Origin: Escherichia coli
GTDB taxonomy: Bacteria; Pseudomonadota; Gammaproteobacteria; Enterobacterales; Enterobacteriaceae
DNA length: 64,000 bases
Reading direction: 5' to 3' (one strand)
Assembly (NCBI RefSeq): GCF_024223415.1
Contig: NZ_CP100500.1
Shown here piece after piece: positions 16,994-55,940 of this stretch. The notes beneath the pieces were generated by a model that did not search any database, was not told the DNA's origin, and was given only the letters and a program-made list of their open reading frames with translations. The translations under genes and the position numbers were made by a program. Each line of letters begins with the position of its first letter. Position 1 is the stretch's first letter.

Positions 16994-17289
16994 AATGGCT
17001 CACTCAAGCTTGCTCACGATTGATTCCAGTAACAAACCGTATTGTGTAATTATTTCTATAGCAGATCGCTATATAGGCTTGTATACATCGAATAATTTGA
17101 AAATCAAAGAGATAGGTAGATTTTCACTCGAAAGTAGTATTACGTGTAAGTGAGGAGTAATTATTGTTCGGTATCAAAGGGAGACAAAAAAAGCGCCCGC
17201 AGGAGATTTAACGGTACTTACTCCTCTTGCTGATTTCCTTATTTTTCAATAAGTAAACAAAAACAAGGGGAGCAAATTATCACAAATAA

Positions 17290-22643: not shown

Positions 22644-22760
22644 GTAACCACTATGCACACACAAAAAAACCGCTTGCCATGCCGCAATCAGTCAGGTTAC
22701 ATTTCCGCTGCACCTCATAAAACGGGTGCCGGGATTGCAACCCCCGCTGACAAACGAAGC

Positions 22761-22790
22761 GCACAACCGCGCCAGCGGTTTTTTTGTGCG
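22761..22790 (+). terminator. rho-independent terminator (possibly bidirectional)
   Basis: gcacaaccgc-gcca-gcggtt followed by tttttt, embedded in a wider palindrome cgcacaa...ttgtgcg. Confidence 0.6.
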
Positions 22791-22966
22791 TACCGTATCG
22801 CCACGTCTTTTTCGCACCAGAATTATGGTGGGGCGTACGGGGCCGACTTCGGTCGGGCCGGTTTCTTCGTTTGCCGGTGGTTGCAACCCTGTACGTCTCG
22901 CCACCCAGAATTGCAACCTCTGGATGGTGAGTATCCAAAAACTCACAAACGAAGAGGCCAAACACC

Positions 22967-49415: not shown

Positions 49416-49482
49416 ACAAAACAGCCATTCAACGCCGCTGCGGTGCATGAAACCATTACAGAACGCACCAGGAGAGAACACC

Positions 49483-50574
49483 ATGAAAGAGCTGTCAGTT
49501 ACCGTTCCGTCACCGGATATCGACATCACCATCAACAACAACACACTGGCAAACCTCACAGAGCGACTCATGACGCTGACCCTGACGGATAACCGGGCCT
49601 TTGAGGCAGACCGCGTCACCCTCACCCTTGACGATACGGACGGGCAGTTACAGTTGCCACCACGTGGCGCACGCCTGAGAGTGATGATTGGCTGGCGAGG
49701 AGAATCACTGGTTAACAAGGGCACCTACGTCGTTGATGAGGTTGCGTGGGAAGGACCTCCAGATAAACTGATCATCACCGCCAGCAGCGCAGATTTTCGG
49801 GAAGAGTTCAACGTGAGGCGGGAGGTATCCTGGCACGACGTGACCGTAAAACAGGTTGTGTCAGCCATCGCTCACCGCTACGGCCTGAAGACACAGATAA
49901 GCGAAATCCTCATGGATATCGAAATTGACCACGCTGACCAGACCGAAGAGAGCGATATATCCTTCCTGACCCGCATGGCTGAAATGCTGGGTGCGATTGC
50001 CACCGTAAAAAACGGCAGCCTGTTATTCATTCTGCCGGGTGGCGGAACCGGGCCGGACGGAAGAGCCCTGCCTTCGTTCGCCATTACCCGCAGCAGCGGC
50101 GACAGTCACCGCTTTCGCATTGCTGACCGTGATGCGTATACGGGGGTCCGGGCGCACTGGCTCGATCTGAAGTTCGGGCAAAAGAAAAAAGTGAACGTGA
50201 AGCGACGCAGGGAAGCCGGGAAACAGAAACAGGAGAAGAGCAGCAGCCGGGAGGGTGATTACATGGAAGGCGCGGAAGGGAACGTCTACGTTCTGCGCAG
50301 GACTTACCAGAATGAAGAAACCGCACGACGTGCAGCTGCGGCAAAGTGGCAGGAGTTACAGCGGGGAGCAGCGGCATTCTCCATCACTCTGGCACGGGGT
50401 CGTGCCGACCTGTACCCCGAAATGCACGGCAGGGTAACAGGTTTTAAAAGCGAGGTGGACAATCAGGACTGGATTATTGCCAGGGTGGAGCACATCATAG
50501 ATGAAAGCGGCTTCACCACACAACTGGAGCTGGAAGCGAAAATCCCCGAATGGATAGCAGATTCAGGCGGATAA
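49483..50574 (+). CDS. P2 gpD-like tail protein
   Basis: ORF 49447-50574; ATG at 49483 follows aggaga. Blocks LTLTDNRAFEAD, SWHDVTV, HADQTEESDISFLTRMAEMLGAIATVKNGSLLF, ITRSSGDSHRF, GRADLYPE parallel P2 D. Confidence 0.88.
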   Translation: MKELSVTVPSPDIDITINNNTLANLTERLMTLTLTDNRAFEADRVTLTLDDTDGQLQLPPRGARLRVMIGWRGESLVNKGTYVVDEVAWEGPPDKLIITASSADFREEFNVRREVSWHDVTVKQVVSAIAHRYGLKTQISEILMDIEIDHADQTEESDISFLTRMAEMLGAIATVKNGSLLFILPGGGTGPDGRALPSFAITRSSGDSHRFRIADRDAYTGVRAHWLDLKFGQKKKVNVKRRREAGKQKQEKSSSREGDYMEGAEGNVYVLRRTYQNEETARRAAAAKWQELQRGAAAFSITLARGRADLYPEMHGRVTGFKSEVDNQDWIIARVEHIIDESGFTTQLELEAKIPEWIADSGG

Positions 50575-50617: not shown

Positions 50618-50869
50618 ATGTTCCGTTGTCCCCTATGCGGTGCATCCGCACGTATCCGCACCAGTCGCAATGAAAATGATTCAGGCACAGTTCGCCTGAA
50701 GTACTACCAGTGCAATAACCTCGAATGCGGGATCGGCTTTACCACACTGGAGGGTTTTAACAAATTCACATCAAAACGCGCCCCGTCGCCGCAGGGTACA
50801 GAGCGGATACCGTGGGAAGATTTTCCGGGATCTCACAGGGGGAATACTCAGATTAATCTTGATATTTAA
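50618..50869 (+). CDS. ogr: Ogr/Delta-family zinc-finger late gene activator
   Basis: 83 aa; MFRCPLCGASARIRTSRNENDSGTVRLKYYQCNNLECGIGF parallels P2 Ogr (MFHCPLC...YHQCQNVNC...) with a C4 zinc finger (C4, C7, C32, C37). Confidence 0.85.
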   Translation: MFRCPLCGASARIRTSRNENDSGTVRLKYYQCNNLECGIGFTTLEGFNKFTSKRAPSPQGTERIPWEDFPGSHRGNTQINLDI

Positions 50870-51804
50870 GAACAATAATCAGGTTGAGAGGACATCATAA
50901 GGCAAGTAGATTAACGGCAGATACTTTCCCGCAACCACGGGCAAGTATTTAATTATCCATGATGAAATATGACCTAAATTGTTTTTTGCCCGCCGGAAAG
51001 CGGGCATTTTTTTATTCTTTTGTGGTTATGGGGTCATCAGGAACCACGTGCAGATTATATTTTTGTTTTTTTGGCGTTCCTCCGGCAGCAACGAGTTCAT
51101 CAATAAGACACTGACACGCCTGAACATCCCGGGCATGTCTTAGTTTCACCTTTATTGATTTAACCTTATCCTCACCGGAGGAGAAATGCAGTTCAATCTC
51201 AATATCGTTTCTTCGGAACAATCTCATACGCCCCCTGAATATATCAGAAATACTAGTATCGAAAAATGAGAAAACAGTTAGACAGGAGAAACATATTAAC
51301 ACAAATCATTTATACCTATAGATGAAATTATAATTTCATTCATGAATATGATAGATAACTATATTGTGAACAAAATGAAAAATGGCTAAATTAAAAATGG
51401 GCATGGAGGAATGCCCGGTTATCAATATAATGTGACGTAGATCATTGTTTTGCCCGCCGGAGAGCGGGCATTTTTTTTGCGCCTGCCATCGAGGCGCCTT
51501 CCCTGGCGCACACAAAGCAGCCCTGATTTTCCATGAAAACTTCAGGGTTGAGCTGCGGGCACAAAGTGAGTAGATTAGCTACGGGTACCTCCCCCTGACA
51601 ACAGGAAGGGTGTCCATTATCCATGATATACAAACGAAAAGTCTTGTTTTTTGCCCGCCGAAGCGCGGGCATTTTTTTATGCATCAGACAAGATACAGCC
51701 CACCCCAACTGACACCTGAAATATTGCCGCAACAAAAAGAAACAGTTAAATTACGCGCGGGTGCCTTTCGGCTGATGGCCGGAGGGAAAACCTGAAGGCC
51801 GGAT

Positions 51805-52038
51805 GTGGAAAGGCCCCGGAAAACATTTCTGTTTAACCGAGGCCCTAACCGCATTACCTTGACAAGTGAAAGGTTAGCGCCTCTCCGGAAAAGGAGCAAG
51901 TGCTATGTCGCAAAAATCGCTTACGGCCATCACGTTCTGCGTGACGGCAATCCTCATCATCTGGATATTGCACGGTTCGCTGTGCGAAATACGGATGAGC
52001 TTCTGGGGAGCGGAGTTTGCGGCGTTCTTACAATGTAA
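51805..52038 (+). CDS. mok-like overlapping reading frame upstream of and overlapping the hok-like gene
   Basis: 77-aa ORF in a different frame that overlaps the Hok-like ORF, as in hok/mok/sok loci; may be regulatory rather than a stable protein. Confidence 0.35.
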   Translation: MERPRKTFLFNRGPNRITLTSERLAPLRKRSKCYVAKIAYGHHVLRDGNPHHLDIARFAVRNTDELLGSGVCGVLTM

Positions 52039-52045
52039 GAAGTAA
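51905..52045 (+). CDS. Hok/Gef-family type I toxin-like small membrane protein
   Basis: 46 aa, MSQKSLTAITFCVTAILIIWILHGSLCEIRMSFWGAEFAAFLQCKK: N-terminal transmembrane helix plus the conserved SLCEI...AAF... C-terminal pattern of Hok proteins. RBS aaaggag upstream; terminator at ~52140-52170. Confidence 0.7.
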   Translation: MSQKSLTAITFCVTAILIIWILHGSLCEIRMSFWGAEFAAFLQCKK

Positions 52046-53909
52046 GGAAACCGCGACGGGGGAGCAATCCCCCGTCAATCGGTTGCCAGGGTAAGGTCGA
52101 TAAGGCACCCTATCTCACAGACATGAACAAACAAACCCGCAGCATAAAAACTGCGGGTTTTCTTTTTGGTGTCCTCACCGACTTGAAACAGTGATCAGAC
52201 TATAAGACAAAGCCCGCAATGTTGCGGGCTTACTCTACCTCTCGAAAATGTGGTCACTGCGTGGACATACGCTGATACAAATCCTTTATATCAATAAATT
52301 AAATCTTTGTTTTTTTCATCAACAATGATTTAACCTTATCCTCACCGGAGGAGAAATGCAGTTCAATCTCAATATCGTTTCTGTGGAACAGCCTCATAAG
52401 ACAACCTCCTGAATTCATCAGAAACACAGTCAACTGAAAACCAGAAAGCAGACAAACAGTGGACACACATTAATACAAATCATTTATACCTATAGATGAA
52501 ATTGCAGTTTCATCTATAACATGACAGGTAACAATATTGTGAAAAAACTCAAAACTCGTTAGATTAAAGACGGACAGAGCAATGCTACTTTATCAATAAC
52601 ATGTAACCTGTACTTCCTTATTTTGCCCGCCGAAGCACGGGCATTTTTTTTGCGCCTGCCATCGAGGCGCCTTCCCTGGCGCACACAAAGCAGCCCTGAT
52701 TTTCCATGAAAACTTCAGGGTTGAGCCAAAAGCACAAAGACAGTAGATTAACCACGGGTGCCTTCCACCTGACAACAGGAAGGGTGTCCAGTATCAATGA
52801 CAGACAACTCACATTGCTGTTTTGCCCGCCGGAAAGCGGGCATTTTTTTATTCTTTTGTGGTTATTGGGTCATCAGGAACAACATGCAGATTATGCTTTG
52901 ATTTTTTTGGTGTTATTACAGCAGCAACGAGTTTATTAATAAGACACTGACATGCCTGAACATCCCTGACATATCATAATATCACTTTATTTTTTTAGCT
53001 TGTCCTTTCTGGAGCAGAAATATCTCAACATCGTTTCTGTGGAACAACCTCATTTGCCCTTGAATGTATCATAAATATCAGCATCGGAAAACCAACAGCA
53101 ATACAGAAGAAACATGTTAATGCAAATCACTTATACCTATAGATGAAATTACAGTTTTGTTCATAAATATGATAAGTAACTATATTGTGAATAAAATGAA
53201 AACTAGCTAAATTAAACGTGGGCATGGTGGAATGCCTCGTAATCAATAATACATGATCCGTACTTCCTTGTTTTGCCCGCCGGAAAGCGGGCATTTTTTT
53301 GGCGGTTACCATCGCCTCACCTTCCTGGTTCACATGAAGCAACCCTGATTTTCCATGAAAACTTCAGGGTTGAGACAAAAGCACAAAGACAGTAGATTAA
53401 CCACGGGTACCTTCCACCTGACAACAGGAAGGCTGTCCAGTATCAATGACAGACAACTCACATTGCTGTTTTGCCCGCCGGAAAGCGGGCTTTTTTTGGC
53501 AGTTATCATAGCCGCACCTTCCTGGCACATATGAAGCAACCCTGATTTTCCATGAAAACTTCAGGGTTGAGACAAAAGCACAAAAACAGTAGATTAACCA
53601 CGGGTGCCTGCCACCTGACAACAGGAAGGGTGTCCATTATCCATGATATACAAACGAAAAGTCTTGTCTTTTGCCCGCCAAAGCGCGGGCATTTTTTTAT
53701 GCATCAGACAAGATACAGCCCACCCCAACTGACACCTGAAATATTGCCGCAACAAAAAGAAACGGGTGCCTTTCGGCTGATGGCCGGAGGGAAAACCTGA
53801 AGGCCGGATGTGGAAAGGCCCCGGAAAACATCTGTGTTTAACCGAGGCCTGACCCTTCCTACCGTGACAAGTGGAAGGTTAGCGCCTCTTTGTAAAAGGA
53901 GCAAGCGCT

Positions 53910-54050
53910 ATACCGCAAAAAACGATTATTGTTGGCATTTTATGCCTGACAATAACCCTGGTCATCTGGATGGTCCACGATTCGTTATGTGAATTCAGCT
54001 TTGATATCTGGGGAGCGCGTTTTGCGGCGTTCTTGCAGTGTAAACCGTAA
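53910..54050 (+). pseudogene. second Hok-family copy with a non-canonical start (ATA in place of ATG)
   Basis: Same frame and context as the first copy (...ggagcaagcgctATAccg...) giving (I)PQKTIIVGILCLTITLVIWMVHDSLCEFSFDIWGARFAAFLQCKP; ~60% identical to copy 1. The upstream mok-like ORF (53810-53992) is present. Confidence 0.5.
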
Positions 54051-54583
54051 GAAACCGCAGCGGGGGAGAAATTCCCCGCTATCCGGTTGTTGGGGTGGGC
54101 CGATATGGCGCCCTTTCCCTGTAGAGACAAAACAAAAAACCAGATTTGCCCGCCATTGAGAGGGCTTTTTTGTCACCCTCACCAGTGAGGGCATCATCAT
54201 TCAGAGGCGCGTAAGCCACCCGGCGTTAACATCCTGCCTGTCAACCCTGGCCGCAGAGTCTGAACGGCAGGTACCGGAAGGAGTACCAAAAACATCCCTG
54301 ACAAGTTCCGCCACCTTCCCGATATCATCAGGTGTCACATTCCTCACCTCGGCAGTGATCCGTGGCGTACCATCATCGTTAACAAGAGTGGCTTTAAAGC
54401 TGGTGCGAAGGGAAAACAACATCAACATCCCCTCCCTTTGGTTCGTTGCACTGACGGCACGACACCATCAGGAAAAAGAAAAGCCCACAACGTCAGTATT
54501 GTGGACTTTTTTCTTCAAAGATGGACATTATCTGGACACATGAAAATAAAATCCATTTATTTTCATATAGTTAAGTACCATGC

Positions 54584-54626: not shown

Positions 54627-55940
<1,314 letters not shown>

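What the first reader, a model, noticed from the sequence alone, without database searches (positions are those of the whole stretch)
53910..54050. Second Hok-family copy has ATA where the first has ATG, and lacks 16 nt in its leader
The two hok-like loci are clearly homologous but diverged (~60% protein identity). Copy 2 has no canonical start and has lost the segment cagttaaattacgcgc upstream. It may be a decaying pseudogene, or translated only through coupling to the overlapping mok-like frame. Either way the copies are not recent duplicates.
Basis: seen in the sequence. Interest (0 to 1): 0.4.

Follow-up and report, generated by a model that had tools for sequence, protein, structure and literature searches.

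The report
Disarmed second hok toxin gene
The second hok-like toxin gene in this E. coli prophage has lost both its start codon and the key part of its promoter, so it is an ordinary decaying toxin pseudogene, although its antisense antitoxin RNA gene still looks intact.

Summary
Copy 2 (53910-54050) has ATA where copy 1 (51905-52045) and six intact relatives have ATG. Copy 2 lacks 15 nt net, not 16. The peptides are 50% identical, not about 60%.

The missing segment is not leader. It is the conserved -10 box (TAAATT) plus the 6-nt spacer of the hok promoter, with the same geometry as the mapped R1 promoter.

ATA is not a sequencing error. Among 5,426 complete E. coli genomes, 26 carry the locus. 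Seventeen match the 80 nt around the codon exactly, and both one-mismatch records I read have ATA. No full-length match has room for the 15 nt. Nine records (two read) carry a further change, a TTA-to-TGA stop at codon 11. RefSeq leaves the locus unannotated.

The nearest intact cousin (91% protein identity, in a P2-like prophage at another site) has the same upstream block, the 16-nt stretch that copy 2 reduces to one base, and ATG. In plasmid R1 hok, -10 box and start-codon third-position substitutions abolish toxicity, so rescue through mok coupling is unlikely.

The antisense Sok promoter, the Sok hairpin and the 5'-3' fold-back pairing are all intact in copy 2.

Verdict: a toxin-dead hok/sok locus, possibly an orphan antitoxin. 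Ordinary; low interest.

The parts
53910..54050 (+). Copy 2 hok-like ORF: 46 codons, first codon ATA, stop TAA. This is the toxin pseudogene.
   Evidence: (Pfam HOK_GEF 22.6 bits against a cut-off of 22). ATA is present in every assembly I read, and 17 of 26 complete genomes match the surrounding 80 nt exactly.
53940..53942 (+). Codon 11 (TTA). It reads TGA (stop) in the two variant records I read. Nine of the 26 complete-genome records carry a single mismatch in this 80-nt stretch.
   Evidence: read in L002 and L003. The other seven records show the same 98.8% identity and have the same chromosome size as L002.
53744..53763 (+). Remnant of the copy 2 hok promoter. The -35-like TTGCCG (53744-53749) is kept. 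The 15-nt deletion junction lies at 53762-53764, so the -10 box and spacer are gone.
53764..54113 (+). Copy 2 hok-mRNA-like body. The 5' end GGGUGCC (tac-like, 53764-53770) pairs with GGCGCCC (fbi-like, 54107-54113), with one U-G pair.
   Evidence: Rfam RF01794 hit at 53764-53921 and the RNAalifold 5'-3' helix.
53896..53901 (+). hok Shine-Dalgarno sequence AAGGAG, 8 nt upstream of the ATA. It is intact.
   Evidence: the columns are invariant in A3 and A5.
53810..53992 (+). mok-like overlapping frame: GTG at 53810, and an in-frame GTG at 53864 that is positionally equivalent to the R1 mok AUG. It stays open across the hok start.
   Evidence: The frame is not conserved in L004A, L005 or L007, so its status is inconclusive.
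53812..53904 (-). Copy 2 Sok-like antitoxin gene: -35 TTGCTC (53904-53899), 17-nt spacer, -10 TAACCT (53881-53876), and a predicted RNA of about 58 nt (53869 to 53812) with a free 5' tail and a hairpin.
   Evidence: (-22 kcal/mol, z = -2.6). The geometry matches the R1 Sok promoter and the sokW -10 implied by the primers in PMC8621323.
51724..51758 (+). Copy 1 hok promoter: -35 TTGCCG (51724-51729), 17-nt spacer, -10 TAAATT (51747-51752), spacer ACGCGC, and +1 G at 51759.
   Evidence: Conserved as TTGCnn-N17-TA(A/C)ATT-N6-G in six intact loci. The geometry equals R1 TATGAT-N6-G (PMC9841398).
51759..52110 (+). Copy 1 hok mRNA-like body. It contains the intact hok ORF 51905-52045 (ATG), which PGAP annotates as WP_000078913.1, Hok/Gef family protein.
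51807..51899 (-). Copy 1 Sok-like gene: -35 at 51899-51894, -10 at 51876-51871, and an RNA of about 58 nt from 51864 to 51807.
   Evidence: (-22.9 kcal/mol, z = -3.6).
53555..53701 (+). sRNA-gene-like unit u8, with a terminator at 53672-53698. It lies directly upstream of copy 2 and is 96.5% identical to unit u3 (51535-51681) upstream of copy 1.

Best explanation
[quoted passage not shown] It sits as cargo between ogr and the serS-side end of a P2-like prophage.

Two lesions are present in every carrier examined. The first is a 15-nt deletion that removes the -10 hexamer and spacer of the hok promoter, so little or no hok mRNA should be made. The second is a G-to-A change that turns the hok start codon ATG into ATA, which would cut initiation to a few percent or less. 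A third lesion, a stop at codon 11, appears in a sub-lineage. This is what relaxed selection on a dead ORF looks like.

The antisense Sok gene, the hok ribosome-binding site and the mRNA fold-back elements are still intact. Either the decay is recent, or Sok is still useful as an orphan antitoxin.

Shown directly: the lesions, their polarity (ancestral versus derived), their spread among genomes, and the conservation of the RNA elements. Inferred: loss of transcription and translation, and Sok expression.
For: (1) Polarity. Copy 1, L004 hokA, L004 hokB, L005, L007 and L012 all have ATG and the TA(A/C)ATT-N6-GGG(T/C)GCC segment, with TTGC exactly 17 nt upstream. Only copy 2 and its allele in L006 lack both.

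(2) Geometry. It matches the mapped R1 promoter, which is TATGAT (T-12 to T-7) followed by 6 nt and then +1 GGCGCTTGAGG (PMC9841398). Rfam model position 1 and the first base of the 5'-3' helix both fall on G51759 and G53764.

(3) Closest intact cousin. L007/P0002 has 93.6% CDS nucleotide identity and 91% protein identity. It carries the same upstream block, the 16-nt stretch that copy 2 reduces to one base, and ATG.

(4) Population. Twenty-six of 5,426 complete genomes carry copy 2. Seventeen match the 80 nt around the ATA exactly. The two of the nine one-mismatch records that I read have ATA, as does draft L006. None of the 25 full-length matches has room for the 15 nt; the matched spans are 611-612 nt. 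The nine one-mismatch records carry TTA to TGA at codon 11 where read, and L006 has V22L. Both CDS variants change the protein, while the copy 1 CDS is unchanged in L002.

(5) Experimental precedent in R1. Single -10 box substitutions abolish hok transcription. Substitutions at the second and third positions of the start codon (for example G176T) suppress toxicity despite mok coupling (PMC9841398). AUA initiates at roughly 0.02-3% of AUG (bioRxiv 10.1101/063800).

(6) PGAP annotates copy 1 but nothing at copy 2 in the complete RefSeq genomes.
Against: The ORF is otherwise full length in 17 of 26 genomes. Its Shine-Dalgarno sequence, the tac/fbi pairing and the mok-like frame are intact, which would be unexpected for an old pseudogene. 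AUA is a near-cognate start with measurable activity, and Hok is toxic at low doses. One NCBI third-party annotation calls the ORF with ATA as its start (P0001). Read-through from the upstream unit u8, or a cryptic promoter, could still supply some transcript. No expression data were available. The promoter assignment rests on homology and conservation. The generic promoter scan did not flag it, because it scores 8 of 12 and the tool needs 9.
Confidence: 0.8

Rival explanations
1. Attenuated but live toxin. Copy 2 is still expressed at a low level, with initiation at AUA helped by ribosomes translating the overlapping mok-like frame.
For: The ORF, the Shine-Dalgarno sequence and the mok-like frame (GTG 53810 or 53864, open across the hok start) are intact in most carriers. 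AUA supports about 0.02-3% of AUG initiation (bioRxiv 10.1101/063800). NCBI calls an ATA-start Hok/Gef protein in one assembly.
Against: The -10 box of the promoter is deleted. In R1, a third-position start-codon substitution abolishes toxicity even with mok coupling (PMC9841398). Nine of 26 records carry a single change here, which is a stop at codon 11 in the two I read. A canonical mok start is missing in three of six intact relatives.
Confidence: 0.08
2. Orphan antitoxin under selection. The toxin was disarmed, and the locus is kept because Sok2 RNA neutralises related incoming hok mRNAs from plasmids or other phages, acting as anti-addiction or immunity. This extends the best explanation rather than excluding it.
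For: The Sok2 promoter (TTGCTC-N17-TACCT-type hexamer TAACCT) and hairpin are intact and identical in all sequences read. The Sok2 5' tail differs from the Sok1 tail: cognate tail duplexes are -41 and -46 kcal/mol against -21 and -22 for the crossed pairs. The Sok2 tail nearly matches the target region of the L004 hokB-type mRNA (-34 kcal/mol).
Against: Among carriers there is almost no sequence variation in the locus outside the hok ORF, so selection cannot be told apart from recent decay. Genome CP033635.1 holds no other member of this hok subfamily for Sok2 to act on; only two places matched, copy 1 and copy 2. R1 work found no cross-talk from chromosomal Sok RNAs (PMC9841398). No expression data exist.
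Confidence: 0.2
3. Sequencing or assembly error at 53912.
Against: Seventeen independent complete genomes match the 80 nt around the codon exactly, which includes ATA. Both one-mismatch records I read, and one draft assembly, also have ATA. The isolates come from several countries and hosts.
Confidence: 0.01
4. RNA editing restores the start codon. TadA deaminates the last A of AUA to inosine, which is read as AUG, giving a conditionally expressed toxin, by analogy with hokB editing.
For: TadA edits hokB mRNA in E. coli, and inosine is read as G (PMC12214031). The A is preceded by U and followed by C (UAC).
Against: The TadA motif is UACG. Here the context is UACC (GCGCUAUACCGC). The local sequence forms no stable stem-loop (-2.6 kcal/mol, z = +0.4). 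The promoter deletion still applies.
Confidence: 0.01

Closest known systems
hok/sok (parB) of plasmid R1, the archetypal type I toxin-antitoxin system
   Same: The layout matches throughout: a -10 box, 6 nt, then +1 G of a 5' tac element that pairs with a 3' fbi element; a hok Shine-Dalgarno sequence and ORF; and an antisense Sok promoter (TTGCnC-N17-TAnCCT) whose -35 overlaps the hok Shine-Dalgarno sequence. Both peptides reach the Pfam HOK_GEF cut-off.
   Different: The peptides are 46 aa, not 52. They fall below the NCBIfam Hok and HokA cut-offs, and the leader is below the Rfam gathering score. Copy 2 lacks the -10 box and the AUG. A conserved mok start is not evident across this subfamily. 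The locus is in a prophage, not on a plasmid.
Chromosomal hokA-E loci of E. coli K-12, reported as mostly inactive
   Same: These are hok loci that have lost toxin expression while remnants of the system persist. This is the same kind of decay (summarised in bioRxiv 10.1101/2025.08.07.668861; the original Pedersen and Gerdes 1999 work is cited from my own knowledge).
   Different: Here the lesions are a promoter microdeletion plus a start-codon point mutation. From my own knowledge, the K-12 loci were inactivated by IS insertions or rearrangements. This locus is also one half of a two-copy islet in a P2-like prophage.
hokW/sokW of Stx2 prophage Sp5 (E. coli O157 Sakai)
   Same: It is a prophage-borne hok/sok with experimentally shown toxin and antitoxin activity. 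The sokW -10 implied by the published primers (…AAGAGGC|TAACC…) corresponds to the TAACCT assigned here (PMC8621323, Table 2).
   Different: HokW is 51 aa and more distant. Phage-database hits to copy 2 are at most 64% identical. HokW is intact and aids phage release; copy 2 is disarmed.
Intact cousin P0002 (MSQKAIIVGILCLTITLVIWMVHDSLCGFSFDIWGARFAAFLQCRP) in P2-like prophages next to a copA-like ATPase gene
   Same: It has 91% protein and 93.6% CDS identity to copy 2, an identical upstream sRNA-like block, and the same position after ogr.
   Different: It has ATG and the full promoter segment. Its Sok-target region is of a different type. It is a single copy rather than a pair.

Membership tests
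Hok/Gef toxin family (Pfam PF01848) | Profile match at or above the Pfam gathering score | tested here: met
   Copy 1 scores 29.0 bits and copy 2 scores 22.6 bits, against a cut-off of 22. Copy 2 is marginal.
Hok/Gef toxin family (NCBIfam HokA equivalog NF007290; Hok subfamily NF007279) | Score above the curated cut-off | tested here: not met
   Scores are 30.7-39.5 bits against 89, and 21 bits against 73. This is a separate Hok subgroup, not HokA-E.
Hok/Gef toxin family | [quoted passage not shown] | tested here: not met
   Copy 2 has AAGGAG, 8 nt, then ATA, with no canonical in-frame start until codon 21. Copy 1 meets this feature.
hok/sok type I TA locus (R1 type) | hok mRNA leader matches the Rfam RF01794 covariance model | tested here: inconclusive
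   Scores are 48.1 and 46.2 bits, with E = 6e-9 and 2e-8, over the full model length, but below the gathering score of 59.
hok/sok type I TA locus (R1 type) | Long-range 5' tac / 3' fbi pairing | tested here: met
   RNAalifold pairs columns 1-7 with 351-357 in all five loci. Copy 2 keeps the helix through one U-G pair. Eighteen pairs elsewhere show compensatory changes.
hok/sok type I TA locus (R1 type) | hok promoter with a -10 box at -12 to -7 | tested here: not met
   Copy 2 has it deleted. It is present in copy 1 and five other intact loci, and in an R1-type locus.
hok/sok type I TA locus (R1 type) | Antisense Sok gene: a promoter overlapping the hok Shine-Dalgarno region, and a short RNA with a free 5' tail and a hairpin | tested here: met
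   This is sequence-level evidence only. Both copies have TTGCTC-N17-TAACCT and a 58-nt RNA. The hairpins fold at -22.9 and -22.0 kcal/mol (z = -3.6 and -2.6). Transcription was not tested.
hok/sok type I TA locus (R1 type) | An overlapping mok frame whose translation reaches the hok ribosome-binding site | tested here: inconclusive
   The frame is open in both window copies, with TTG or GTG at the R1-equivalent position. L004A, L005 and L007 have no canonical start there.
hok/sok type I TA locus (R1 type) | Toxicity of the peptide and neutralisation by the antisense RNA | not testable with these tools
   This needs growth or killing assays.
TadA A-to-I mRNA editing substrates | A UACG motif presented in a stem-loop | tested here: not met
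   The context is UACC, and there is no stable local hairpin. The motif is as given in PMC12214031.

The most novel reading that the evidence does not exclude
The toxin was disarmed, but the locus is maintained as a Sok-only gene. The prophage would then carry an orphan antisense RNA, with a recognition tail different from Sok1 and nearly matching another hok subtype (L004 hokB type). This RNA would neutralise hok mRNAs brought in by competing plasmids or phages, acting as an anti-addiction or immunity function.
Probability: 0.15. Interest if true: 0.45.

Novelty: new member of a known kind. Interest (0 to 1): 0.15.

Why it matters
It matters little beyond annotation. The locus shows how a type I toxin gene is silenced in nature by the same two kinds of lesion (-10 box loss and start-codon loss) that laboratory selections recover as toxicity suppressors. 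It also flags an inconsistency in public annotation: the locus is unannotated in complete RefSeq genomes, but one assembly calls it as an ATA-start Hok/Gef protein. If Sok2 proved to be expressed and protective, it would be a natural example of an orphan type I antitoxin carried by a phage.

Tried and rejected
(1) Sequencing error. Rejected: seventeen complete genomes match the 80 nt around the codon exactly, and all other assemblies I read also have ATA.

(2) An apparently intact 98%-identical protein, P0001, suggested an ATG allele at the same serS site. Reading the DNA showed that it too has ATA and the deletion. NCBI simply accepted ATA as a table-11 start.

(3) The generic sigma-70 scan did not report the hok promoter, because it scores 8 of 12 and the tool needs 9. 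The assignment rests on conservation and on the R1 geometry instead.

(4) I first took the long GTG-initiated mok-like frame (77 and 60 codons) as mok. It closes after 14 codons in L004A and L004B, so it is not a conserved feature.

(5) A-to-I editing as a way to recreate AUG. The motif and the structure are not met.

(6) Neither the sRNA-like units nor copy 2 has a close match in sequenced phages. The units gave no DNA match, and the best protein match to copy 2 is 64%.

(7) A full-text search for the terminator sequence of the units found nothing.

(8) Supplementary Table S6 of PMC9841398 is not held, so I could not check whether G176A (AUG to AUA) itself is listed there. Only G176T is named in the main text.

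(9) dN/dS between copy 2 and L007 has no power: 4 synonymous and 5 non-synonymous codon differences.

Full report
**Setting.** The window is E. coli. A P2-like prophage ends here with gpD (49447-50574) and ogr (50618-50869). The host gene serS follows at 54627-55919 on the minus strand. The 3.7 kb between them holds two hok/sok-like loci about 2 kb apart, embedded in eight repeated sRNA-gene-like units.

**Checking the observation.**
- Copy 1 is an ATG-initiated 46-codon ORF at 51905-52045. Copy 2 is the colinear 46-codon frame at 53910-54050, and its first codon is ATA.
- Both peptides reach the Pfam Hok/Gef cut-off of 22 bits (29.0 and 22.6 bits). Both are far below NCBI's HokA and Hok models.
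- Both leaders match Rfam RF01794 over its full length, with E about 1e-8, but below the gathering score.
- The peptides are 23/46 = 50% identical, not about 60%.
- The length difference upstream is 15 nt net. Copy 1 has CAGTTAAATTACGCGC where copy 2 has a single C.
- Copy 2 has no ATG, GTG or TTG in frame between the upstream TAG at 53880 and the ATA. The next canonical start is codon 21.

**What the missing segment is.** Rfam model position 1, and the first base of a conserved 5'-3' helix (GGGUGCC pairing with GGCACCC, or GGCGCCC in copy 2), both fall on G51759 and G53764. These bases therefore mark the mRNA 5' end, as the tac element does in R1. In an R1-type plasmid locus the arrangement is TATGAT, 6 nt, then +1 GGCGCTTGAGG. 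Le Rhun et al. mapped that hexamer as the -10 box, spanning T-12 to T-7, and showed that single substitutions in it stop hok transcription (PMC9841398). Copy 1 reads TTGCCG, 17 nt, TAAATT, ACGCGC, then G(+1). The same TTGCnn-N17-TA(A/C)ATT-N6-G arrangement is present in five other intact loci: L004 hokA, L004 hokB, L005, L007 and L012. Copy 2 keeps the -35 hexamer but has lost the -10 hexamer and the spacer.

**Polarity and spread.**
- All six intact relatives have ATG, so ATA is the derived state.
- The closest intact cousin is P0002, at 91% protein and 93.6% CDS identity. It lies after ogr in P2-like prophages inserted next to a copA-like gene. It has the identical upstream block, the promoter segment and ATG.
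- Among 5,426 complete E. coli genomes, 26 carry copy 2 at 99% identity or better. The next relatives are only about 80% identical.
- Seventeen of the 26 match the 80 nt around the ATA exactly. Nine differ by one base. In the two of those nine that I read, the difference is TTA to TGA at codon 11, a premature stop. Eight of the nine records have the same chromosome size, so they probably represent one clone. There are therefore at least two sources of the stop allele, not nine independent ones.
- A draft assembly at the same serS site (L006) also has ATA and the deletion, plus V22L. NCBI called that ORF with ATA as its start.
- The matched spans of 611-612 nt leave no room for the 15 nt in any full-length hit.
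- PGAP annotates copy 1 as Hok/Gef and leaves copy 2 blank.

**What is still intact in copy 2.**
- The hok Shine-Dalgarno sequence (AAGGAG, 8 nt before the ATA) is present.
- The tac/fbi pairing is kept through one U-G pair, and the rest of the predicted fold is preserved.
- On the other strand there is a Sok-like gene: TTGCTC, 17 nt, TAACCT, then an RNA of about 58 nt with a 14-15-nt free 5' tail and a hairpin of -22 kcal/mol.
- This matches the R1 Sok promoter geometry (TTGCGC-N17-TATCCT) and the sokW -10 implied by the mutagenic and probe primers of Takada et al. (PMC8621323, Table 2).
- The two Sok tails differ. Cognate tail duplexes are -41 and -46 kcal/mol, against -21 and -22 for the crossed pairs. 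Cross-protection between the two copies is therefore unlikely. Le Rhun et al. likewise found no cross-talk from chromosomal Sok RNAs.

**Mosaic structure.** Between the two copies, the upstream unit is 96.5% identical and leader positions +1 to +77 are 97.4% identical. The Sok-target stretch is 68% identical, the CDS 68% and the 3' UTR 76%. L007 shares the same upstream block but has a third type of Sok-target region. The loci are therefore modular recombinants. The 5' module was exchanged or homogenised recently. Because the deletion lies inside that near-identical tract, it happened after the exchange.

**Mechanism.** The best reading is a toxin-dead locus. Without a -10 box there should be little transcription. 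With AUA, initiation would fall to roughly 0.02-3% of AUG (bioRxiv 10.1101/063800). In R1, start-codon substitutions at the second or third position were recovered as toxicity suppressors even though hok translation is coupled to mok (PMC9841398). The codon-11 stop in a sub-lineage shows that the ORF is not being maintained by selection.

The idea that mok coupling rescues translation is weak for a further reason. The long GTG-initiated frame closes after 14 codons in L004A and L004B. A canonical start at the R1-equivalent position is present only in the window copies and L004B.

I also considered and rejected an RNA-editing rescue. The TadA motif is UACG, whereas the context here is UACC with no stable hairpin.

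Whether Sok2 is retained by selection or simply has not yet decayed cannot be decided. There is almost no variation among carriers in the locus outside the hok ORF. At least one carrier genome also has no other hok of this subfamily for Sok2 to act on.

**Comparison with what is known.** The locus works like R1 hok/sok and prophage hokW/sokW. It belongs to the Pfam Hok/Gef family but not to NCBI's HokA-E models. Decay of chromosomal hok loci is long known. A recent survey reports that about 10% of hok genes lie in islets of 2-6 copies within 2 kb of each other, that 98% of islets hold a single cluster at 60% identity, and that 5.3% of predicted peptides lack both a start codon and a Shine-Dalgarno sequence (bioRxiv 10.1101/2025.08.07.668861). 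This pair, at 50% identity, is one of the rare mixed islets.

**Verdict.** The pseudogene reading is strongly favoured (0.8), and interest is low (0.15).

Noticed in passing
window 50870-53701 (+): units at about 50870-51016, 51334-51480, 51535-51681, 52507-52653, 52706-52852, 53157-53303, 53355-53501 and 53555-53701: Eight tandem sRNA-gene-like units. Each has an invariant TTGnG, about 17 nt, then TA(G/A)ATTA; a body of 75-95 nt with a 5' hairpin, a CA-rich CCUGACAACAGGAAGG stretch and a conserved UUAUC(A/C)AU; and a strong terminator, UGCCCGCC…GCGGGCAUUUUUUU. There are two subtypes. No Rfam family reaches its gathering score; the only hits are weak ones to AgvB, RyhB and rseX. The units occur in only 30 of 5,426 complete E. 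coli genomes and in no sequenced phage, and nothing is annotated there. They may be an undescribed family of prophage sRNAs.
   Followed up: partly
window 51836-51860 against 53841-53865; L007 and L004 equivalents: The stretch complementary to the Sok 5' tail is a hypervariable island (68% identity) inside an otherwise roughly 97%-identical leader. It comes in at least three types among close relatives. This suggests modular exchange, or diversifying change, of antitoxin specificity.
   Followed up: partly
L017 (NZ_AP045770.1) 2141-4007, compared with window 50618-54100: Another P2-like prophage, inserted next to ihfA, has the same sequence of ogr, a 71-aa ORF and sRNA-like units, but carries hicAB where this window carries hok/sok. 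The slot after ogr is therefore an exchangeable cargo site for toxin-antitoxin modules.
   Followed up: no
L006 1354-1494; window 53970-54050: Public annotation of copy 2 is inconsistent. It is unannotated in complete RefSeq genomes. One third-party NCBI annotation calls it as an ATA-start Hok/Gef family protein (P0001). Elsewhere the internal 26-aa ATG ORF is called as a hypothetical protein (P0003, on 15 contigs).
   Followed up: yes
window 53925-53952 (-): This is the best sigma-70-like match in the region: TTGTCA, 16 nt, AATAAT, scoring 10 of 12. It lies on the antisense strand inside the copy 2 ORF and points toward the hok start and the Sok gene. The total number of promoter-like sites is not above the shuffled expectation (9 against 6.9), so it may be chance.
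   Followed up: no
window 51012-51302 (-) and 52299-52466 (-): There is a small ORF that PGAP annotates as the 71-aa hypothetical protein WP_001236182.1, conserved after ogr in several P2-like prophages. A partial second copy sharing the motif RNDIEIELHFSSGEDKVKS lies between the two hok loci.
   Followed up: no
window 17084-17218, 22710-22785 and 22821-22908 (+): Three Rfam matches above gathering score lie elsewhere in the window: STnc130, and an adjacent isrK plus C4 antisense RNA pair.
   Followed up: no
L004 (NZ_CP148318.1) 1830-1970 and 2552-2692: This is another two-copy hok islet, next to ytfP and tamB, in which both copies are intact (ATG and promoter segment present). It serves as a useful contrast to the pair in this window.
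   Followed up: partly
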